Shown: in pieces, positions 16,986 to 31,212 of the stretch
How positions within the stretch are numbered: the first letter of the stretch is position 1
Layout of the letters: each line of letters starts with the position of its first letter
Program-made: the position numbers and the translations under genes
Virus record (IMG/VR): IMGVR_UViG_3300004481_000331
Span: 1,548-65,547 of that record
Strand: one strand, 5' to 3'
DNA length: 64,000 nucleotides
Source of the DNA: a virus
Lineage: Duplodnaviria > Caudoviricetes
The notes under the pieces: model-generated
What the model was told of the DNA's origin: nothing
Database searches by the model: none
The model's input: only the letters and a program-made list of their open reading frames with translations

Positions 16986-18323
16986 TTATGGACAGACAGC
17001 CGGAGCAAACGAGGTCAGCGGGTAGAAACTGGTCTCGGTTGGGTCAGCGCTCATGAAGCCACCAGGAGTAATGCACTGCACGTCTTGGAAGCGAATCTGA
17101 GTAAACGGTGCTTTGCAGAACAGGCGAGGGTGAATCCAGCCTTTCATCTGGCGACACTCGTTTTCTGTATCAATGCGCCACAGGACGCGCCCACCATCGG
17201 TGCTGAAGTAACCGCCTTCAGGTGTTTCGCTTGCAGCTACATCGGCGCTGATATGCTCGCCTTCCCAGATACGGAAGTTGCCAACTGCTGATGTCAGGAA
17301 GTAGATATCGCCAGTAGTTGGGCCATTGATCAGACCAAAGTCGTAGCCCAAGATTGGGATAATCTGACCATCCAAAATGATCTGACCGAAGCCAAACATG
17401 CCACCGATCAACCCATCCCGGAACTTGCGTGCTTCGTAGGACTGCAAAGCAACTTCGTTGTACTGCGAGCCATCACAAACTGACCAGCAGGTGTAGAAAT
17501 CCAGCAAGCAGTTGGTCATGGAGACTGGCATAACGATGATCATATCGCCAGTTGAGATATTTTGAGTGCGCAGGCGAGGAGCCCAGGAAATGCGCTGTTT
17601 GATGCGCCGATAGGCAGCGAGCAGAACGTCAATGAAGTTGTAAGTCGCAGCGACCGGGTTGCCGTTCCAGGTGATGCCAGCACCGCCAGACATTGGATTG
17701 CCATTCCAATCAACCACGACACTGTCCAGAATAGAGCAGTCATAGCCAGTCCGCACCCACCGCTCTAAGCCATCGAACTGCCCGGGCGTGGCTGAGTTGC
17801 CTGTGACGACCATCTGGTTCACATCATTAATGATCTGATCAGCAACGAACTTCATATCCCATTCGCGCTCATCCATGACTTTTGTGCCATCGAGCCGCCA
17901 AAGGGGGTCGGTCACGCAGTACTTCTTGGGCTTCATAATGTCACGAGTTGGACCCAATCGACCAATGCGCCCAAAGTCCTCAACCGTCAACTTGCAAGAA
18001 CCCCATTCCACACCATTGGGGTCAGCGCAGGGGTCAGACAGGTAACCGGCTGTGGGAGAGCCTTGGTAGTAAGCTGGACGGACAAAGGTAATGAACTCGA
18101 TAGAACGGTAACATTCATTGCCCACATTGAAGCCGAGCCAATCCAGCAAAGGCAACTGCCCAGCCATATGCAATGAGAGCAGGTCGCCATCACCACAGCG
18201 GTCAAAGAAGTTGCAACAACCAAACGGCGTAGCGGTAGTGCTTAAAGTCATGGCACGCTGGCGCATGGTCGGTTTTGCTGCGCTCTGAAGTGCAGCGATT
18301 AAATCATCAGTCGAGATATTCAT
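16986..18323 (-). CDS. Major capsid protein (445 aa)
   Basis: Directly follows the protease/scaffold gene; strong SD AGGAGG at start 18323; size fits; 'GNSATPGQFDGL' resembles an HK97-fold motif. Confidence 0.75.
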   Translation of the reverse strand: MNISTDDLIAALQSAAKPTMRQRAMTLSTTATPFGCCNFFDRCGDGDLLSLHMAGQLPLLDWLGFNVGNECYRSIEFITFVRPAYYQGSPTAGYLSDPCADPNGVEWGSCKLTVEDFGRIGRLGPTRDIMKPKKYCVTDPLWRLDGTKVMDEREWDMKFVADQIINDVNQMVVTGNSATPGQFDGLERWVRTGYDCSILDSVVVDWNGNPMSGGAGITWNGNPVAATYNFIDVLLAAYRRIKQRISWAPRLRTQNISTGDMIIVMPVSMTNCLLDFYTCWSVCDGSQYNEVALQSYEARKFRDGLIGGMFGFGQIILDGQIIPILGYDFGLINGPTTGDIYFLTSAVGNFRIWEGEHISADVAASETPEGGYFSTDGGRVLWRIDTENECRQMKGWIHPRLFCKAPFTQIRFQDVQCITPGGFMSADPTETSFYPLTSFAPAVCP

Positions 18324-24290: not shown

Positions 24291-25844
24291 TTATGCTCCC
24301 ATTCCTTGCACCCAACCCCGTTTCTGCGTGAGCCACCACCATCCCCAGTAAGCCACGTCAGCAAGGTCAAGCGGTTCATTTGGAAACCTTTTCAATGCAC
24401 GTTCTAGGATGTCATGCGTTCCAAGTACATGCACTATTTTACCATGCTCGTAATCCACAAGCATGCGCTGCGTCCTGGCTACTTTACTGCCATGCCCTTC
24501 ACCCGCTTTAGCCTGTTTGAATGAAGGTAATCTCGTTTCCCGGGTGATGCCTGGATAGTCAGGATTATTGATCAGTTGCCTGCACACGTCCCGATAAGCC
24601 GGAAGCCACACATCACCGCCTTGATCAGTTTCAACGCCCACAGTTTCAAAGCCATACTCAAGTGCTTTGGTAATTGCGATCATCAAAGCCTTCTCAGGAG
24701 ACATAATTTGTTCCATTGAAAAGAAGCGGTAAAGTTTCTTATCACGTGAAATACCATCAGCCTGGATACCTTGACTGCATGAACCATCCGTAGAAGTTAC
24801 AGCCGGGTCAACCCAAACCGAGCCTGCTACAATATCTGGCACTTCTTCACGTGTGCAGCGAGCAAACTCAATATGATCATATATCCCGCCCAACACTTCA
24901 GCGACCTCATGCTGCGCTTCACACAAAAAAGCACTGATGCCCCAAGTATTTATTTGTTCTTGGCAAACAGGCAACCCTTGACCTTCCCAGGTGGCTTGAC
25001 CGTCAATGATTTTATATTGTCCATCGATCAACTGGTAAGTCAGGCGCGTGACTGCAGGATGAGGCCCAGACAAGATACAGTCAGTCAAAAACTTGCGCTC
25101 TTTGCTGGCTAAGTTTGTTGCAATACTATTTCTGTGGATTAGGTTCTGCACAAATAGCACAGCCAAGTCGCTCGAGCCAGCCGGAAGGATTGATTCAGTG
25201 ATCGTCTCAATTTTCTTTTTGACCAGTTTCGGGCTGTCATGCTTATTATCTACATCATCGAAGATGATCATATCCGGGCGCTGTTCTTCGCTCTTTGCGC
25301 CTCGAGTAGCCACATCCAAACCGATGGCATCAATAGTCAAGCCTGATCGAGTTCTCAATCGCTGGCGACGCCAACCACGACTATGCCCATACTTGCCTAC
25401 CCTGCGTTCTGATAGAGCTGGATGATGCGCTTCCATCGCCCTTGATTCAAGCATCGATGCAATAGTTTCCACGTGCTTGTCTGCTTGATCTTGTACTGAA
25501 CAGCAGTACCAAATATACTTCCGGCTGCGTAGCGCACCGACTCTCACGCATGCAAGTTCTGCACTGGTTGACTTTGCACCTGATCGAGGCCAAATAGCAA
25601 TAAAAGGCAATGGACGGACACCTTTGCTGATCGAATCTACCCATGACCAGAAATCAATGTGCCTTTGTGCAAAGGGCGCACTAACATAGGCTGGAAATAT
25701 CAAAGCTAGCCATTCTTGCCATGGCAACACTGCATCAAAATCCAGCAGTTCTTCATCCGGCAAAAATAGGTCACTAACCTGCTCGATTAGTGAGTCGGAT
25801 AAAGGTTTCTTGTATCCGGGAAAGAGTCCTATTGTCGGGAACAT
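24291..25844 (-). CDS. terL: Terminase large subunit
   Basis: Walker A-like PRSGAKST, Walker B IIFDD, RNase H-like WVDPA...VETDQGG...DLAD; exact start uncertain. Confidence 0.85.
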   Translation of the reverse strand: MFPTIGLFPGYKKPLSDSLIEQVSDLFLPDEELLDFDAVLPWQEWLALIFPAYVSAPFAQRHIDFWSWVDSISKGVRPLPFIAIWPRSGAKSTSAELACVRVGALRSRKYIWYCCSVQDQADKHVETIASMLESRAMEAHHPALSERRVGKYGHSRGWRRQRLRTRSGLTIDAIGLDVATRGAKSEEQRPDMIIFDDVDNKHDSPKLVKKKIETITESILPAGSSDLAVLFVQNLIHRNSIATNLASKERKFLTDCILSGPHPAVTRLTYQLIDGQYKIIDGQATWEGQGLPVCQEQINTWGISAFLCEAQHEVAEVLGGIYDHIEFARCTREEVPDIVAGSVWVDPAVTSTDGSCSQGIQADGISRDKKLYRFFSMEQIMSPEKALMIAITKALEYGFETVGVETDQGGDVWLPAYRDVCRQLINNPDYPGITRETRLPSFKQAKAGEGHGSKVARTQRMLVDYEHGKIVHVLGTHDILERALKRFPNEPLDLADVAYWGWWWLTQKRGWVQGMGA

Positions 25845-26525: not shown

Positions 26526-27182
26526 TCATGGAGTACTGGGTAAAAGTTTCTTGTTGTCTTTGACCAAATAGATCAGCGGCATCGAGACAACAGTGATAAT
26601 TGCTTTCCAAATGATCTGACCGCCTACGATTCCCATAGCTGCACTAAACGGTGTCACCTGCGCGCCGAACAGTGGAGGCAAGACAACAAAAGCCAGCGTA
26701 CCGAAGATGAAACTATCCAGCGGCAAAGATACAGCGTTGCTGATCAGCACCCTTGCCCACTGAGGTGACTTGGGAATTTTAGTCATCCATAAGTGATAGA
26801 CTTCAGTATCAACAAGTTCACTGATCAATTCCGCAATGATTGAACCAATGGTAATGGCAGGCACAATTGCAAAGATGGTTTTCCATGCATCGCCAAGCGT
26901 GAAGAATGCAGGCGTAGGTAGTAATGACATCGCCCACAAGTAAAATGCTTGGAAGATATTGAACAGCCCTGCTATGATGATCGCTGCTCGAGCCCATTCT
27001 TTACCGAGTCGCTTATGCAGCAAATCACGCAAAGTGAACGTGAGCGCAAAGACAAGGCTTCCTGCCGGCAGCGTAGTATTGAATAGTTGAATCATCTTAG
27101 TCGCCCCTACATCAGCGATAGCTTGACAGACAACATAAGCCCCAACCAGAAATACAATTGTGAAGATAGTTGACTTTTTCAT
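26526..27182 (-). CDS. yhhQ: Queuosine-precursor (preQ0/preQ1) transporter, YhhQ/Vut_1 family
   Basis: Multi-TM; motifs 'F.LTF.LRDL..', 'SELVDT.VY', 'SNAVSLPLDSFIF'. Confidence 0.85.
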   Translation of the reverse strand: MKKSTIFTIVFLVGAYVVCQAIADVGATKMIQLFNTTLPAGSLVFALTFTLRDLLHKRLGKEWARAAIIIAGLFNIFQAFYLWAMSLLPTPAFFTLGDAWKTIFAIVPAITIGSIIAELISELVDTEVYHLWMTKIPKSPQWARVLISNAVSLPLDSFIFGTLAFVVLPPLFGAQVTPFSAAMGIVGGQIIWKAIITVVSMPLIYLVKDNKKLLPSTP

Positions 27183-27511
27183 TTTATTCTACTCCCATAA
27201 TATTCGATAGTTGCGGTTACATCAGCATGCACCATTGTCTGAGCGCAAACTGACACAACCAAGCTGGATGGATTGACAAGTACCAAGAGAAGTTTTTCAA
27301 AGATAAAGCGGCATAATGACTCTACCGTGTACTCATGCATGGCTTCATCCTTGAGAAACTTCTCGAAAGCTTCAAACTCGAGCAACCAATCACCGGGCAT
27401 AAATTTAATTTTGATCATACCGTGAAATGGTGCTTTTCCTATTGAACAGATAACAGAAAATTTTGGGGTGTACTCGATCAAGTGAACTTTTGAATCATTG
27501 GGAATTTTCAT
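27179..27511 (-). CDS. QueF-like T-fold protein (divergent)
   Basis: Single T-fold of 110 aa; Cys (CSIGKAP), LLEFEAFEKFL and TVES equivalents; context. Confidence 0.6.
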   Translation of the reverse strand: MKIPNDSKVHLIEYTPKFSVICSIGKAPFHGMIKIKFMPGDWLLEFEAFEKFLKDEAMHEYTVESLCRFIFEKLLLVLVNPSSLVVSVCAQTMVHADVTATIEYYGSRIK

Positions 27512-28623
27512 AAACTTAACTCCTTGTAGATATTGTACTCGCCAGCATAACCTTCTGCAGTTATCTTGGCTTGCATGCGGCGACCATAATCAGCCAGACG
27601 CGCAAGATCATAGTGCGTCTTTGGTTCTTTAATTACTTCATCAATCAACCGCAATGCATCAGTGACTTGGAAAGCTTTATACAAGCGATCAACTGGTAAT
27701 ACTTCCAAAAAAGAACGGAAAGCTGGATAAACAAGATCACAGCCTGCGGTTATTGATTCCAAGAGGACATAAGAAACAAAATCTTGTAGAGCAGAACTAA
27801 AATTAATTTTAGAACATGCCAAGTTTTTATAATAATCATCTTTGGGAATACCACTCAGCATAATAAAACGAGAATGACTTTTAGCAAATTTTTCTAATGC
27901 ATCGATCATACCAGGAACATTGCTTCTAAAATTTGCTCCTGAAGTACTGATAATCCACCACCAAGTAGGATGCAATTCCAAAAACTTAGCCGCAACTTCA
28001 AGCATAAATTCTGGCTGCTTTTCCTGATCAAGGCGGCTGGCATAATATATTACATCCTCTTTTTCTTTTTGTGGCTGCGTCCTGCGCCAGACATCATTTG
28101 AATCATAAGGTAAACAAGTTACATGAATTGGGCACTTGTAACCTGCGACTACCAGTAATTCTTTTAGGAAAGATGAAGAAACAAATATACCAGTATGCTG
28201 ATCAGCATAGCCGAGTTCTAATAATCTCATCCAGGAGCGCATTGGATAAGTGAAGTCATAAATATCCACAGATTGAGCATGCAGCATTGAATAAGTGCGC
28301 AATGATAGCCCCATTAGTTTGGCTGCATAAAATATGGCTTCCATCCCGGGCGTATAGAAATCTTGAAAGAATAATACATCACCATCTTTTATTTTGCCTG
28401 CTCGCATCAATTTTAGAAACTGAGACACTTGTGATAAAGAATATATACCACGTGCAGTTGCATCAAGGACACAGCCGAACTGAATTTCTTGATCAACCTG
28501 CTCACCTGTTATCATTGTATAGTCAATATTTTCTGCCTCAAAAGTATCAGGCATCCACCGGAAACATAAGTCATAAGTGTAGCGACTTTTCACTGGCTCA
28601 ATCGGAAAATAATATACGATCAT
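27508..28623 (-). CDS. GT-B (GT4-like) glycosyltransferase
   Basis: 'YYASRLDQEKQP' and 'SSALQDFVSYVLLESITAGC' GT4-type motifs; start refined by ATGA overlap. Confidence 0.75.
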   Translation of the reverse strand: MIVYYFPIEPVKSRYTYDLCFRWMPDTFEAENIDYTMITGEQVDQEIQFGCVLDATARGIYSLSQVSQFLKLMRAGKIKDGDVLFFQDFYTPGMEAIFYAAKLMGLSLRTYSMLHAQSVDIYDFTYPMRSWMRLLELGYADQHTGIFVSSSFLKELLVVAGYKCPIHVTCLPYDSNDVWRRTQPQKEKEDVIYYASRLDQEKQPEFMLEVAAKFLELHPTWWWIISTSGANFRSNVPGMIDALEKFAKSHSRFIMLSGIPKDDYYKNLACSKINFSSALQDFVSYVLLESITAGCDLVYPAFRSFLEVLPVDRLYKAFQVTDALRLIDEVIKEPKTHYDLARLADYGRRMQAKITAEGYAGEYNIYKELSL

Positions 28624-29048
28624 TTTATACCACCGCAAGTGTCGCCGCTGTAATCCGCAGGAACAGCTTTTAGCCCTTGATTAATATTCCAAGTGATTGT
28701 ATTGAACTCACCAATAATGACTCTGACTGTATCTATTTCTTTCAGCCGTTTTATTGTACTTGTGCGAAAAGTCAAAACTATATGACATCTGGCTAAAAGA
28801 TCAACTGGTAATTGCTCAAGCATATCAGGATAGACAGAAATTGTGACTTCTATTCCTGGCTTGTGATACCACCTATAAATTTCATTGAAGCCATAGCGCA
28901 GCAAGAATTCTTCATTGAAGTAAATATGCTTAAAGTCAAGATTTTCATTGATCGGATAGTCATAGACAAATAATGTCTTTTTCCCATACATACGAGTATT
29001 TTCTACTTCAATGCCTAATGCTGCTGACCAGCCAGTTCTATCATTCAT
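28620..29048 (-). CDS. Hypothetical protein of the modification cluster
   Basis: 'GIEVENT.MYGKKTLFV' motif; translationally coupled on both sides. Confidence 0.65.
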   Translation of the reverse strand: MNDRTGWSAALGIEVENTRMYGKKTLFVYDYPINENLDFKHIYFNEEFLLRYGFNEIYRWYHKPGIEVTISVYPDMLEQLPVDLLARCHIVLTFRTSTIKRLKEIDTVRVIIGEFNTITWNINQGLKAVPADYSGDTCGGIK

Positions 29049-29386
29049 CTGGATACCCTCGCTCCAAACTCGTTATCTTCCCAAACTTCACATGAAATTA
29101 AATCAAATTCTGTTAGCAATTTAATTGCAATTGATTCACAAGATAATCCACCAAAATAGATACAGCCGATCTCATCAATACTGAAAGTGTCTTCAAACCA
29201 CTTTTTAATCTTGTGTGCATAGGAAATAAATTCAATGTCTCGGTCTGCATGCGCAACTGACTTTTCTGCAATAATAAAAAACTTATGCCGGTGTAAGTTA
29301 CTTAAAAAATCTACTTGACTAGTCGCTTCTTTCCAGAAATGATTACCGCTGACTTCAAGTTTTATTAGGATAGAAATTTGCATCAT
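29045..29386 (-). CDS. QueD-paralogous T-fold protein (LxxxHRHxF type, DpdL-like)
   Basis: 'H.W..A...VDFLSNLHRHKF...HADRDIEFI...SCE.IA...V.ED.E.GA'. Confidence 0.65.
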   Translation of the reverse strand: MMQISILIKLEVSGNHFWKEATSQVDFLSNLHRHKFFIIAEKSVAHADRDIEFISYAHKIKKWFEDTFSIDEIGCIYFGGLSCESIAIKLLTEFDLISCEVWEDNEFGARVSR

Positions 29387-30390
29387 TTTATATATTGATA
29401 CCTCCCTAATGCTTCTTCAGCATAATCTATAAACCGATCAGGATTCATTGGCCTCATACCTTCAATCTGACTTTTATACTCGGGATAAGAAAATTGACCG
29501 GATTCATCAATTGAGTGAAGAACTGCACAAAACTGCGCAAAGTGAGTTGACTTCGATAATCCTGGCATGACTATAAAATAGTTGATGCCGCTAGCTTGTT
29601 TAATATACTTCATTACTTGAAGAAATGCATAAGTATGACTGGCTTGTGTCAATGAAGGATGAAATGAACCGCCTCTCCACTGAGCAGAATCATTCATATC
29701 TTCAGCGGTAACGCCCCATGATCGTAACTGACTAAGGAACTTAGATGATCGTAAAGAATGAAATGATTCCTTCAGTTTAGTTTTATTGATAATTGGCAAA
29801 CCTTTAGGCTTGTCAAATATCATTATTACCCCATAACGTGAGCCATTAATCCAAGTTGAACTGTCAGCACTATTGATAGGCAATCCCATGATCTCAGGAT
29901 ACTTGCCCCATGCCAAAGCGTGTGATTTTATTCGTCCATTAGATAACTTATTAGCCATCTGATATCTTTGATAACTATACTCTTTGGCTGATTGCCAGCC
30001 AGCAGAAATACAGACATGATCATTGATCGAAAGCAATCTTGGCAATTCATCCCAATCCATACCTTGAATAAATATAGGCATCGGTGCAAGACCAGCCGCT
30101 ACTTGTTGATCGAGTAATATACGACTGGCTAAAGGGTCACGTGGCTTATCTAACTGTATATAACCCCATACATGACTCTTGACTGCATGGCAAAAAGAAA
30201 TGTAATCATCGACTTTAATTTTATCAACTGACTTTCCAGTAGCTGCACTTTTGATGCCTTTCCAGTAATCTGTAAAGCCACCACTATCGATCAATATATT
30301 AGCATGACTAGCTATGCGCAATGTATCCTGCAAGTAATCACTGCGCGATTTTAACAGATATGCATAACTGGCTAATATGTTAACTAACAA
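29383..30390 (-). CDS. dpdA: DpdA-like / TGT-fold guanine transglycosylase
   Basis: TGT catalytic motifs IDSGGF, QLD, HALAWG, SADSSTW; TTG start with SD GGGAG. Confidence 0.75.
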   Translation of the reverse strand: MLVNILASYAYLLKSRSDYLQDTLRIASHANILIDSGGFTDYWKGIKSAATGKSVDKIKVDDYISFCHAVKSHVWGYIQLDKPRDPLASRILLDQQVAAGLAPMPIFIQGMDWDELPRLLSINDHVCISAGWQSAKEYSYQRYQMANKLSNGRIKSHALAWGKYPEIMGLPINSADSSTWINGSRYGVIMIFDKPKGLPIINKTKLKESFHSLRSSKFLSQLRSWGVTAEDMNDSAQWRGGSFHPSLTQASHTYAFLQVMKYIKQASGINYFIVMPGLSKSTHFAQFCAVLHSIDESGQFSYPEYKSQIEGMRPMNPDRFIDYAEEALGRYQYIK

Positions 30391-31111
30391 CTATTGTACA
30401 CTCCCATTCTGGATGATCATCAAGAAATTCTCGTGTGGCTTTAATAGCATCTTCCAAAAGCAAACCATTTCCTACTTCAATGCGGAAACCATATATAACG
30501 CCCATCTTGCGTTCTTCGCCTTCAACTTCAGGTATCTTAATTTGCAAACCTCGAGTAAATAAATCCAGATCATCGCCGCTGACCGTTACTGGCAATTCTT
30601 CATCCTGCCCAAGGCTGGTAAGTACTTTTAGATATGCATCAGAGTCCCAAAGTCGCTTCATATCAAAGGCAGTAAAATCGCCGCCGCTCAAAGTCAGGTT
30701 GTTACTATCAACTGCATAAGCCACGGCTTGAGCCAGCGTTTCTGCATCTGTGCCGATCAGTAAAGGCATAACCCACCTGCCCTCATGATCATGCGCCAAA
30801 CCACGTGGCAATGACTCCCCCGCCTTTTCCATTTGTGCTAATGCTTCAATGCGTCCATTCCCGGCTTTGATCGCACCTTTGCCACCTAATAGATTGATCA
30901 GATTTATATCAAAGCGTGGAAGCTCTTGAAAACCATATTTCCCAATAGATTGCCCTATTGCCCCAAGATCATGCAACTTTGGATTTTCATTCCAAAGTAA
31001 ATTCACCGCTTCACGCACAGGTATCCATACCAACCTGGGCGGGTCTTTCATAGTCATCTGTTCTTCAGTCACTTGAGTATATTTGGTCGCTGGCAAAATT
31101 TGATCTGTCAT
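30380..31111 (-). CDS. ParB/Srx-like domain protein
   Basis: 'ENPKLHD..AIGQSI.KYGF...IKAGNGRIEAL...AYAVDSNNL'. Confidence 0.75.
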   Translation of the reverse strand: MTDQILPATKYTQVTEEQMTMKDPPRLVWIPVREAVNLLWNENPKLHDLGAIGQSIGKYGFQELPRFDINLINLLGGKGAIKAGNGRIEALAQMEKAGESLPRGLAHDHEGRWVMPLLIGTDAETLAQAVAYAVDSNNLTLSGGDFTAFDMKRLWDSDAYLKVLTSLGQDEELPVTVSGDDLDLFTRGLQIKIPEVEGEERKMGVIYGFRIEVGNGLLLEDAIKATREFLDDHPEWECTIVVS

Positions 31112-31131: not shown

Positions 31132-31159
31132 ATTATAACTTAGTTTTGATGCTTGACAA
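31132..31159 (-). promoter_or_regulatory. Promoter for the ParB-dpd-terminase operon
   Basis: TTGTCA (31159-31154), 16-nt spacer, TATAAT (31137-31132). Confidence 0.55.
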
Positions 31160-31212
31160 CCACTTTGTATTATGATATTATTATCACATCACAAGCAAAC
31201 AGGAGACATCAA
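31151..31212 (+). promoter_or_regulatory. Early promoter-RBS element, copy 2
   Basis: TTGACA 31153, TATTAT 31176. Confidence 0.85.

What the first reader, a model, noticed from the sequence alone, without database searches (positions are those of the whole stretch)
26526..31111. 7-deazaguanine DNA-modification operon containing a GT4 glycosyltransferase: candidate sugar-decorated deazaguanine in phage DNA
Seen: ParB-like > DpdA/TGT-like > QueD-paralogue > unknown > GT4 glycosyltransferase > QueF-like > YhhQ. Five consecutive ATGA stop/start overlaps link these genes (29383-6, 29045-8, 28620-3, 27508-11, 27179-82), so the glycosyltransferase is an integral member. The block is AT-rich (spot count 15/60 GC at 27781-27840 vs 33/60 at 17581-17640 in the capsid gene). 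Established: phage DpdA swaps G for 7-deazaguanines (dG+, dPreQ0, dPreQ1, dADG and others) to evade restriction, and GT4-type enzymes glycosylate queuosine in animal tRNA. Inference: this operon may make a glycosylated or otherwise new deazaguanine base in DNA, which I do not know to have been characterised.
Basis: partly seen in the sequence, partly recalled or inferred. Interest (0 to 1): 0.88.

Follow-up and report, generated by a model that had tools for sequence, protein, structure and literature searches.

The report
Sugar transferase inside phage deazaguanine operon
A complete 65.5-kb uncultured phage carries an operon for swapping guanine in its DNA for a 7-deazaguanine base. The operon includes an apparently working sugar-transferring enzyme that sits next to the base-swapping gene in every related phage locus examined, so the DNA may carry a sugar-bearing purine that no paper I found describes.

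Summary
Seven minus-strand genes (31111-26526) form one operon, with five ATGA stop/start overlaps and lower G+C than most of the window.

Gene identities:
- ParB-like protein: indirect support only.
- DpdA: phrog_887, conserved DSGG, LD and SxDSS motifs, 26% identity to phage 9g DpdA.
- DpdL: exact LxxxHRHxF signature, 35.5% identity to phiST DpdL.
- 142-aa protein: weakly QueE-like, without the iron-sulfur cysteines.
- GT4-type GT-B glycosyltransferase: pLDDT 94, Z up to 26.8.
- QueF-like T-fold protein: keeps the Cys but has lost both lysines of the NADPH motif.
- YhhQ importer.

The whole genome has no FolE, QueD, QueE or QueC, so this is a salvage variant.

The refutation test passes. At least 590 viral stretches encode the transferase. 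In 88 loci examined, a DpdA gene lies beside it in 87; the exception stops at the contig end. DpdL, the 142-aa family, or both accompany it, and some phages fuse those two. Cultured carriers include PA5oct, whose G is modified but chemically undefined.

A sugar on the base is inferred, not shown. No paper I found describes it. This scan has already noted the same transferase association on many other genomes; the salvage layout is what is new here.

The parts
31132..31159 (-). Promoter-like site upstream of the operon, back to back with a plus-strand site at 31153-31181
   Evidence: TTGTCA-16-TATAAT, 11 of 12 consensus positions. This is a consensus match only.
30380..31111 (-). ParB-N-like protein, 243 aa; possible helper of DpdA, by analogy with bacterial DpdB
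   Evidence: No Pfam, NCBIfam or PHROG hit. 1803 homologues. The family profile matches Faecalibacterium phage Roos orf76 (hhalign prob 89.5%), and that protein hits Pfam ParB_N at E 1.1e-5, just below the cut-off. Atlas neighbour clusters carry ParB_N in 15-100% of members. ParB-type genes recur in the cluster in L010, L095 and Roos.
29383..30390 (-). DpdA, the DNA guanine transglycosylase, 335 aa, closest to the phage 9g / Nonagvirus type
   Evidence: phrog_887 'queuine tRNA-ribosyltransferase', E 6.5e-18. tblastn finds the annotated '7-deazaguanosine inserting enzyme' genes of 9g, JenP1 and BASEL phages at about 26% identity over residues 4-200. Invariant D35-S36-G37, D81, S174 and D176 in alignment A3.
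29045..29386 (-). DpdL, a QueD/T-fold paralogue, 113 aa
   Evidence: Carries L-SNL-HRH-K-F, the published DpdL signature LxxxHRHxF (PMC10516641 section 16). 35.5% identity to the phiST DpdL locus over 94% of its length, E 2e-8. phrog_17812, E 8.5e-15. Invariant H16, W18, H32-R33-H34, S82-C83-E84, E103-D104 and E106.
28620..29048 (-). Conserved 142-aa protein of no described family; possibly a QueE-derived base-binding protein without the radical-SAM cluster
   Evidence: No family hit. Present in 62 of 88 transferase loci, and also in Xanthomonas phage X1 and Burkholderia phage BCSR5 by hhalign (prob 83% and 96%). Invariant W7, G12, E14, E16, R19, H41, D106, Y133 and D136. Model pLDDT 86. Best structural matches are three QueE structures at Z 5.3, 5.0 and 4.8, which is weak. 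Fused to DpdL in L068, L069, L070 and L077.
27508..28623 (-). GT-B, GT4-like retaining-type glycosyltransferase, 371 aa
   Evidence: Pfam Glycos_transf_1 E 1e-4, 22.3 bits, below the 26.4 cut-off. AlphaFold model pLDDT 94. Foldseek top hits BshA and MshA at E 1e-13. VIA Z 26.8 to sucrose-phosphate synthase, 26.0 to BshA, 23.4 to BH4 glucosyltransferase and 20.7 to T4 alpha-glucosyltransferase. Invariant R197, E201, K202 and D281-x7-E289 in 35 homologues.
27179..27511 (-). QueF-like T-fold protein, 110 aa, with the catalytic-position Cys but without the NADPH-binding lysines
   Evidence: TIGR03139 QueF-II at E 6.7e-6, 26 bits, far below the cut-off. Best PDB match is archaeosine synthase QueF-Like 5jyx at E 0.13, nearly full length, with the Cys aligned. 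The QueF motif position reads EFEAFEKF here and EFEAFESW in L010, which is 51% identical. The L010 copy hits Pfam QueF at E 0.0068.
26526..27182 (-). YhhQ / Vut_1 queuosine-precursor transporter, 218 aa
   Evidence: Pfam Vut_1 at 110.6 bits (cut-off 27.2). TIGR00697 'queuosine precursor transporter' at 91.9 bits (cut-off 50.95).

Best explanation
This is a salvage-type, DpdL-class operon for 7-deazaguanine DNA modification. YhhQ most likely imports a queuosine precursor base (preQ0 or preQ1), or else a host pathway intermediate is used. The QueF-like protein, DpdL and the 142-aa QueE-like protein would convert that base into the form to be used. DpdA, probably helped by the ParB-like protein, would exchange it for guanine in phage DNA after replication. 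The GT4-type glycosyltransferase is a fixed core part of this class of system and most likely transfers a sugar from a nucleotide-sugar onto the deazaguanine, either as free base or once in DNA. The expected result is a sugar-bearing 7-deazaguanine that shields the genome from restriction. Shown here: the gene identities, the intact donor-binding motifs, and the strict linkage of the transferase to DpdA and to DpdL or the 142-aa family. Inferred: every chemical step, the acceptor, the sugar, and the order of glycosylation and insertion. My odds are about 0.9 that the transferase works in the deazaguanine pathway and about 0.5 that the final DNA base carries a sugar.
For: 1. Linkage. The transferase family is encoded on at least 590 viral stretches. 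In 88 loci (82 IMG/VR, 5 cultured phages, this window) a DpdA gene lies beside it in 87; the one exception has no downstream sequence. Of 51 loci with at least 1.5 kb on both sides, DpdA is present in 51, DpdL in 41, the 142-aa family in 37, and at least one of the last two in 51.
2. DpdL elsewhere in the genome. Where DpdL is not adjacent, it was found elsewhere in all three records of 72 kb or more that I checked.
3. Independence from lineage. The linkage holds across two different DpdA types (this window's type and the PA5oct/ACP17 type) and across T4-like, jumbo and 44-65-kb phages. That argues for shared function and against shared ancestry of one cassette.
4. The enzyme looks active. R197, E201, K202 and D281-x7-E289 are invariant among 35 homologues of 32-57% identity, together with about 20 invariant N-domain residues. 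The GT-B/GT4 fold is confident.
5. Sugar supply. A nucleotide-sugar epimerase/dehydratase gene lies between the transferase and QueE in one lineage (L093, L094 and the P0112 contig). Synechococcus phage BUCT-ZZ01 has a second GT1-type gene in the cluster.
6. No rival acceptor pathway. The complete genome has no thymidylate-synthase-like gene, so no hydroxymethyl-pyrimidine route of that type.
7. Literature. Cui et al. could not obtain dDG in E. coli from ACP17 or phiST dpdL plus dpdA and suggested that other enzymes may be needed; ACP17 carries this transferase between its DpdA-like gene and DpdL. PA5oct, another carrier, has restriction-resistant modified G of undetermined structure (PMC12191111).
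Against: No chemistry was observed. 7-deazaguanine itself has no hydroxyl, so an O-glycoside would need a prior step or an unusual C- or N-glycosylation. Pfam scores the transferase below its cut-off. Its closest structural relatives are mostly small-molecule GT4 enzymes and not DNA glucosyltransferases (T4 AGT ranks only 34th), which fits action on a free base or some other small acceptor. phiST makes plain dDG with DpdL and has no detectable copy of this transferase. Faecalibacterium phage Roos has ParB, DpdL, DpdA and YhhQ without it. DpdL systems therefore work without the transferase. The assignment of DpdL as a CDG decarboxylase is itself unproven, and it fits poorly with a genome that has no CDG pathway.
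Confidence: 0.55

Rival explanations
1. The transferase acts in the pathway, but the sugar is not in the final DNA. It might glycosylate a free deazapurine or pterin intermediate as a transient handle, a detoxified side-product or a storage form, while DpdA inserts a known sugar-free base such as DG.
For: The nearest structural relatives are small-molecule GT4 enzymes: BshA, MshA, sucrose-phosphate synthase, and the pterin glucosyltransferase 5zer at Z 23.4. The densely invariant N-domain pocket fits a small defined acceptor. DpdL-only phages make plain dDG.
Against: It is hard to see why a transient step would be kept beside DpdA in 87 of 88 loci across two DpdA types. Some clusters add a second transferase or a sugar-tailoring enzyme, which suits a displayed glycan better than a throw-away handle.
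Confidence: 0.17
2. The transferase has another target, such as a protein (DpdA itself, a virion or host protein), a host envelope glycan, or a different DNA base. On this view it sits with the deazaguanine genes only as part of a general anti-defence or replication gene block.
For: In T4-like and jumbo phages the cluster lies within the replication gene block, between polymerase, RecA-like and primase genes. This genome also has separate GT2-type genes near the capsid gene, according to a first-stage note that I did not check.
Against: The adjacency survives transfer into quite different settings: here and in L010 the cluster sits beside the terminase genes, and it occurs with either DpdA type. 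The DpdL/142-aa fusion and the translational coupling here tie the neighbours into one unit. No hydroxymethyl-pyrimidine pathway of the thymidylate-synthase type is encoded.
Confidence: 0.13
3. The transferase-like protein no longer transfers sugar. It serves instead as a scaffold or as a DNA- or base-binding partner of DpdA.
For: The Pfam score is below the cut-off. The first acidic residue of the EX7E-like motif is Asp, not Glu.
Against: All positions that align with the nucleotide-sugar binding residues of GT4 enzymes are invariant over homologues down to 32% identity. Sugar-nucleotide tailoring genes co-occur in one lineage.
Confidence: 0.07

Closest known systems
DpdL/DpdA3 system of Cellulophaga phage phiST, which gives 2'-deoxy-7-deazaguanosine (Cui, Hutinet et al., NAR 2023, PMC10516641)
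   Same: It has a DpdL with the LxxxHRHxF signature (35.5% identical) working with a DpdA-family transglycosylase. QueC is absent.
   Different: [quoted passage not shown] Here those three are absent. The DpdA is closer to the 9g type. A GT4 enzyme, a 142-aa QueE-like protein, a QueF-like protein, YhhQ and a ParB-like protein are added.
Phage 9g / Nonagvirus DpdA1 systems (dG+ in DNA) and the bacterial DpdA-DpdB pair
   Same: The DpdA is of similar size and about 26% identical over its N-terminal 200 residues. A ParB-type gene lies directly upstream of dpdA; that this resembles bacterial DpdB is from my own knowledge.
   Different: There is no preQ0 synthesis and no Gat-QueC. The ParB-like protein has no measurable Pfam ParB_N match of its own.
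Glucosylation of hydroxymethylcytosine by T4 alpha- and beta-glucosyltransferases, and newer phage DNA glycosyltransferases acting on 5hmC/5hC (10.1101/2023.12.21.572611, PMC13326640; titles and abstracts only)
   Same: A GT-B enzyme is encoded with base-modification genes in a phage. T4 AGT is a structural match at Z 20.7.
   Different: All described acceptors are pyrimidine hydroxyl groups. Here the only base pathway encoded is for a purine analogue, and the enzyme is no closer to the DNA transferases than to generic GT4 enzymes.
Archaeosine synthase QueF-Like (PDB 5jyx)
   Same: It is the best PDB match for the 110-aa protein, is the same length (109 against 110 aa) and aligns the Cys. That QueF-L also lacks the NADPH motif is stated in PMC10516641.
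   Different: The match is very weak (E 0.13). Cui et al. report that no phage QueF in their set aligned with QueF-L, so membership is open.
Faecalibacterium phage Roos cassette: ParB_N, DpdL, DpdA, YhhQ (PP479939.1, unannotated)
   Same: It has the same salvage layout and the same DpdL (42.5% identity), DpdA type (hhalign prob 96.4%), ParB-like family (prob 89.5%) and YhhQ.
   Different: It has no transferase and no QueF-like protein; the 142-aa family was sought there by tblastn only. Being cultured, it is a natural transferase-less comparator.

Membership tests
DpdA (TGT-superfamily DNA transglycosylase) | Sequence homology to TGT/DpdA proteins | tested here: met
   phrog_887, E 6.5e-18. 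tblastn finds 9g-type DpdA genes at E 3e-5 to 1e-4. There is no Pfam TGT hit and no PDB sequence hit with profile A3.
DpdA (TGT-superfamily DNA transglycosylase) | Conserved catalytic and substrate aspartates (DSGG-type motif, LD, and a second Asp motif) | tested here: met
   D35-S36-G37, D81, S174 and D176 are invariant in 10 homologues. Equating them with the TGT catalytic residues rests on my own knowledge.
DpdA (TGT-superfamily DNA transglycosylase) | Exchange of guanine in DNA for a 7-deazaguanine | not testable with these tools
   Needs nucleoside mass spectrometry.
DpdL (QueD paralogue, proposed CDG decarboxylase) | Signature LxxxHRHxF replacing the QueD motif CxxxHGH | tested here: met
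   LSNLHRHKF in the 113-aa protein. L28, H32, R33 and H34 are invariant in 20 homologues and F36 is nearly invariant. The motif is taken from PMC10516641.
DpdL (QueD paralogue, proposed CDG decarboxylase) | Homology to the founding member in phiST | tested here: met
   35.5% identity over 94% of the query, E 2e-8.
DpdL (QueD paralogue, proposed CDG decarboxylase) | [quoted passage not shown] | tested here: not met
   The complete genome has no hit to PF01227, PF01242, PF04055 or PF06508. QueC is absent as expected, but so is the CDG pathway. Most other loci that carry the transferase do have FolE, QueD and QueE.
GT4-type GT-B glycosyltransferase | Two-Rossmann-domain GT-B fold | tested here: met
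   Model pLDDT 94. VIA Z 26.8 with 338 residues aligned to 6kih, and Z 26.0 to BshA 6n1x. Foldseek E 1e-13.
GT4-type GT-B glycosyltransferase | Pfam Glycos_transf_1 above the gathering score | tested here: not met
   22.3 bits against a cut-off of 26.4 and 24.3 bits in the genome search. Some homologues carry a precomputed PF00534 assignment.
GT4-type GT-B glycosyltransferase | Donor-binding residues (Arg/Lys for the diphosphate, EX7E motif) | tested here: inconclusive
   R197, E201, K202 and D281-x7-E289 are invariant. The first acidic residue is Asp, not Glu. Mapping onto GT4 donor contacts comes from memory, not from a superposition.
QueF (NADPH-dependent preQ0 reductase) | NADPH-binding motif E(S/L)K(S/A)hK(L/Y)(Y/F/W) | tested here: not met
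   The position reads E-F-E-A-F-E-K-F, with both lysines replaced. The L010 homologue shows the same change. The motif is taken from PMC10516641.
QueF / QueF-L T-fold family | Sequence homology and the catalytic Cys | tested here: inconclusive
   TIGR03139 E 6.7e-6 but 26 bits against a cut-off of 86.9. QueF-L 5jyx at E 0.13 with the Cys aligned. The L010 copy hits Pfam QueF at E 0.0068.
YhhQ / Vut_1 queuosine-precursor transporter | Curated family models above their cut-offs | tested here: met
   PF02592 at 110.6 bits (cut-off 27.2). TIGR00697 at 91.9 bits (cut-off 50.95).
ParB N-terminal domain | Match to Pfam ParB_N | tested here: inconclusive
   No direct hit for the protein or for 25 homologues. 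It is linked by hhalign (prob 89.5%) to Roos orf76, which hits ParB_N at E 1.1e-5, just below the cut-off. Atlas neighbour clusters carry ParB_N.
QueE (radical-SAM CDG synthase), considered for the 142-aa protein | CxxxCxxC-type iron-sulfur cluster motif and radical-SAM core | tested here: not met
   No cysteine is conserved in 23 homologues. In the phage QueE set C79, C83 and C91 are invariant.
QueE (radical-SAM CDG synthase), considered for the 142-aa protein | Fold and N-terminal QGEG...F.R motif | tested here: inconclusive
   The top three structural matches are QueE, at Z 5.3 (rmsd 3.6, 115 aligned), Z 5.0 and Z 4.8. hhalign aligns the G-x-E-V-E-G-R...F-V-R stretch with QueE's QGEG...F.R, but at only 7.6% probability.

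The most novel reading that the evidence does not exclude
Phages of several lineages replace guanine with a sugar-bearing 7-deazaguanine. As far as I know, this would be the first glycosylated purine analogue in DNA. The core set would be DpdL, a cluster-less QueE relative, a GT4 transferase and DpdA. This 65.5-kb phage would build the base purely from salvaged queuosine precursor, using a QueF-like protein that has lost NADPH binding. That would also mean DpdL's substrate is not limited to phage-made CDG.
Probability: 0.4. Interest if true: 0.9.

Novelty: new variant of a known kind. Interest (0 to 1): 0.76.

Why it matters
Eight 7-deazaguanine derivatives are known in phage DNA, and none carries a sugar. 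All described DNA base glycosylations are on pyrimidines. A glycosylated deazaguanine would be a new class of DNA hypermodification. It could affect restriction, CRISPR and modification-dependent nucleases, sequencing of phage DNA, and enzymatic DNA labelling.

The linkage also offers a concrete candidate for the 'other unknown enzymes' that Cui et al. invoked when DpdL plus DpdA failed to give dDG in E. coli.

The question is directly testable, because several carriers are in culture: PA5oct, ACP17, X1, BUDD, BCSR5 and BUCT-ZZ01. PA5oct is already known to have an undefined modified G.

The salvage layout found here, and in cultured phage Roos without the transferase, questions the assumed role of DpdL as a CDG decarboxylase.

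Tried and rejected
- blastn of the operon against 50,697 phage records gave no match.
- The look-up of sequencing runs listed no run, and no RNA holder was listed.
- PDB sequence searches found nothing usable with profiles of the 142-aa family, DpdA or the ParB-like family. DpdL as a single sequence gave only chance hits.
- Foldseek of the 142-aa model against the PDB gave nothing at E <= 0.001. The atlas gave no lead for it.
- The search for homologous proteins for the QueF-like protein returned only the protein itself.
- ACP17 hyp132 and BUCT-ZZ01 hyp174 are not members of the 142-aa family.
- I first called the long DpdA-like proteins next to the transferase 'DpdA3-like'. tblastn with the L041 copy did not reach phiST or Campylobacter phages. 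I therefore call them only the PA5oct/ACP17 type (phrog_10773; Pfam TGT E 1.2e-5 for L041).
- The genome-contig scan found the transferase on only 5 contigs, all in metagenome-assembled genomes and 3 of them under 5 kb. I could not confirm the bacterial islands mentioned in earlier scan notes.
- The terminase has no close cultured relative, so no host could be assigned.
- The supplements of the Cui paper are not held.
- The script machine was lost, so no isoelectric point, tree or wider tally could be computed.
- A search for the pattern ATGA over the whole window was uninformative.

Full report
**What is there.** The window is nearly all (bases 1548-65547) of a complete 65,547-bp IMG/VR virus record with direct terminal repeats. 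On the minus strand, seven genes run from 31111 to 26526, directly followed by the small and large terminase genes. Five consecutive junctions are 4-nt ATGA overlaps; one was read directly and the others follow from the ATG start coordinates. The ParB-like/DpdA junction overlaps by 11 nt. A promoter-like site matching 11 of 12 consensus positions lies just upstream (31159-31132), and no strong terminator-like site precedes the terminase genes (consensus scan only). G+C is 0.37-0.40 over 27-30 kb against about 0.42-0.53 for most of the window, though four other bins are as low.

**Gene identities.**
- YhhQ is unambiguous: Vut_1 at 110.6 bits and TIGR00697 at 91.9 bits, both above their cut-offs.
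- The 335-aa protein is a DpdA. It hits phrog_887 at E 6.5e-18. It is about 26% identical to the annotated deazaguanine-inserting enzymes of 9g, JenP1 and related phages. It has invariant DSG, LD and SxDSS motifs.
- The 113-aa protein is DpdL. It carries LSNLHRHKF, exactly the LxxxHRHxF signature that Cui et al. give for the QueD paralogue they propose as CDG decarboxylase. It is 35.5% identical to the phiST locus.
- The 371-aa protein scores below Pfam's cut-off for Glycos_transf_1, but it folds with pLDDT 94 into a GT-B enzyme. Matches include GT4-type transferases such as BshA, MshA and PimA and other retaining GT-B enzymes such as sucrose-phosphate synthase and glycogen synthase (Foldseek E 1e-13; VIA Z up to 26.8).
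- The 110-aa protein is a weak QueF relative (TIGR03139 E 6.7e-6). Its best solved relative is archaeosine synthase QueF-Like, at E 0.13, with similar length and the Cys aligned. The NADPH motif position reads EFEAFEKF, so both lysines are lost; the 51%-identical L010 copy shows the same change. It is therefore unlikely to be a preQ0 reductase.
- The 243-aa protein has no Pfam match. Its family links to Faecalibacterium phage Roos orf76 (hhalign prob 89.5%), which hits ParB_N just below the cut-off, and its atlas neighbours carry ParB_N.
- The 142-aa protein belongs to no described family.

**A salvage variant.** Searches of the whole genome with the Pfam models for GTP cyclohydrolase I, QueC, PTPS/QueD and radical SAM found nothing, while the control genomes responded. 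The phage must therefore obtain its deazapurine from the host or the medium, which fits the presence of YhhQ. Only one other locus, L010 from a 44-kb contig, has the same layout. Cultured Faecalibacterium phage Roos has a smaller version: ParB_N, DpdL, a DpdA of this window's type, and YhhQ, with no transferase. DpdL travelling with a preQ0/preQ1 importer and without a CDG pathway is not explained by its proposed role as a CDG decarboxylase. One untested possibility is that the QueF-like protein, through its Cys, converts imported preQ0 into the DpdL substrate.

- The family has 139 or more clusters in the protein collection, and at least 590 viral stretches encode it.
- I fetched 82 viral loci and added five cultured phages and the window. 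I classified the neighbours with iterated HMMs. A DpdA gene lies beside the transferase in 87 of 88 loci; the exception ends at the transferase.
- Of 51 loci with at least 1.5 kb on both sides, all have DpdA, 41 have DpdL, 37 have the 142-aa family, and all have at least one of the last two.
- The commonest order is 142-aa, DpdL, transferase, DpdA, usually with FolE, QueD and QueE nearby.
- In the lineage where DpdL is not adjacent, it was found elsewhere in all three records of 72 kb or more that I checked.
- The DpdA partner is of two different types: this window's type in 14 loci and the PA5oct/ACP17 type in 73. The genomic setting also varies, from the replication block in T4-like and jumbo phages to beside the terminase here. 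The association is therefore functional and not merely inherited.
- Xanthomonas X1 and Burkholderia BCSR5 also have the 142-aa gene directly upstream of the transferase.
- In L068, L069, L070 and L077, DpdL is fused to a 142-aa-like domain.

**Does the transferase look active, and on what?** Among 35 homologues of 32-57% identity, R197, E201, K202 and D281-x7-E289 are invariant. These are the positions that I take, from general knowledge of GT4 enzymes, to hold the nucleotide-sugar. About 20 N-domain residues are invariant too, which suggests one defined acceptor. One divergent lineage places a nucleotide-sugar epimerase/dehydratase gene between the transferase and QueE, and BUCT-ZZ01 has a second GT1-type gene in the cluster. 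The genome has no thymidylate-synthase-like gene that could make a hydroxymethyl-pyrimidine acceptor. Structural neighbours are mostly small-molecule GT4 enzymes. T4 alpha-glucosyltransferase (Z 20.7) and the pterin glucosyltransferase (Z 23.4) are matches but are not special ones. I cannot say whether the acceptor is the free base or DNA.

**The 142-aa protein.** Its model (pLDDT 86) has no Foldseek match. In the exhaustive structural search the three best-covering hits are QueE structures at Z 5.3, 5.0 and 4.8. hhalign aligns its invariant G-x-E-V-E-G-R...F-V-R stretch with QueE's QGEG...F.R, but at only 7.6% probability. No cysteine is conserved in it. I read it as possibly a QueE remnant that still binds the pterin or deazapurine ring, and I hold that loosely.

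**Literature.** Cui et al. (PMC10516641) describe DpdL, DpdA3 and dDG, and their text contains no word beginning with 'glycosyl'. They report failing to make dDG in E. coli from phiST or ACP17 dpdL plus dpdA and suggest that other enzymes may be needed. ACP17 carries this transferase between its DpdA-like gene and DpdL. A 2025 preprint (PMC12191111) shows that PA5oct DNA resists several G-containing restriction sites and infers a modified G without identifying it. PA5oct carries the transferase next to DpdL. Six full-text searches found no report of a glycosylated 7-deazaguanine in DNA. The library does not hold every journal.

**Earlier notes of this scan.** A word search returned many earlier findings on other genomes with the same reading: a transferase locked to DpdL/DpdA genes, a stripped-down QueE copy, and sugar-activating genes. 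I had reached the linkage and the QueE lead before reading them. I could not confirm their bacterial islands: my genome scan found only five contigs, all in metagenome-assembled genomes. What this window adds is the salvage layout with YhhQ, a QueF-like protein that has lost NADPH binding, and a ParB-like gene.

**Verdict.** The operon is real, and the transferase is a core part of a widespread and undescribed extension of DpdL-type deazaguanine systems. A sugar-bearing deazaguanine in DNA is the most likely product, at roughly even odds, but it is not shown. It is best classed as a new variant of a known kind. It can be tested directly by mass spectrometry on phages already in culture.

Noticed in passing
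L068:7126-7986, L069:7126-7986, L077:6387-7226, L070:2022-2881: DpdL is fused to a C-terminal domain that resembles the 142-aa family (a G-x-E-L-E-G stretch and a C-terminal HPxFD motif). This is a natural gene fusion linking the two proteins. In L070 the gene appears split into two ORFs.
   Followed up: partly
L093:10508-11488, L094:10508-11488 and the 85-kb contig of P0112: An NAD-dependent nucleotide-sugar epimerase/dehydratase gene (PF01370, PF16363) lies between the transferase and the QueE-like gene in a divergent lineage of the cluster.
   Followed up: no
L001:3001-4344 (Synechococcus phage BUCT-ZZ01): A second GT1-type glycosyltransferase (Glyco_trans_1_4, E 3.4e-5) lies in the same deazaguanine cluster, next to the DpdA-like gene. 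A xanthine-guanine phosphoribosyltransferase gene is also annotated in the cluster.
   Followed up: no
L089:5303-7899 (Faecalibacterium phage Roos, PP479939.1, genome end): An unannotated four-gene cassette, ParB_N, DpdL, DpdA, YhhQ, in a cultured gut phage. It is a salvage-type DpdL system with no transferase and no CDG pathway in the region shown.
   Followed up: partly
L090:5461-6342 (Chryseobacterium phage MA9V-3): The DpdL match covers only the C-terminal third of a 293-aa annotated protein, so this may be another DpdL fusion. FolE, QueE and a thyA2 gene lie nearby.
   Followed up: no
L092:10458-11357: In a 318-kb phage contig, a second radical-SAM-like gene (weak Pfam hits) directly follows the DpdA-like gene, in addition to the QueE upstream.
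   Followed up: no
L095:8610-11246: A 33-kb contig places an AAA_28 ATPase gene, a 317-aa gene (possibly DpdA; not tested) and a clear Pfam ParB_N gene just downstream of the transferase. ParB-type partners therefore recur in these clusters.
   Followed up: no
window 31132-31181: Two back-to-back promoter-like sites, each matching 11 of 12 consensus positions, separate the modification/packaging operon from the plus-strand genes that start near 31153.
   Followed up: no
window 24291-25844: The large terminase has no close relative among 50,697 phage records (best 29.5% identity over 40% of its length, Rhizobium phage RR1-B). The phage belongs to an uncultured lineage with no host assigned.
   Followed up: partly
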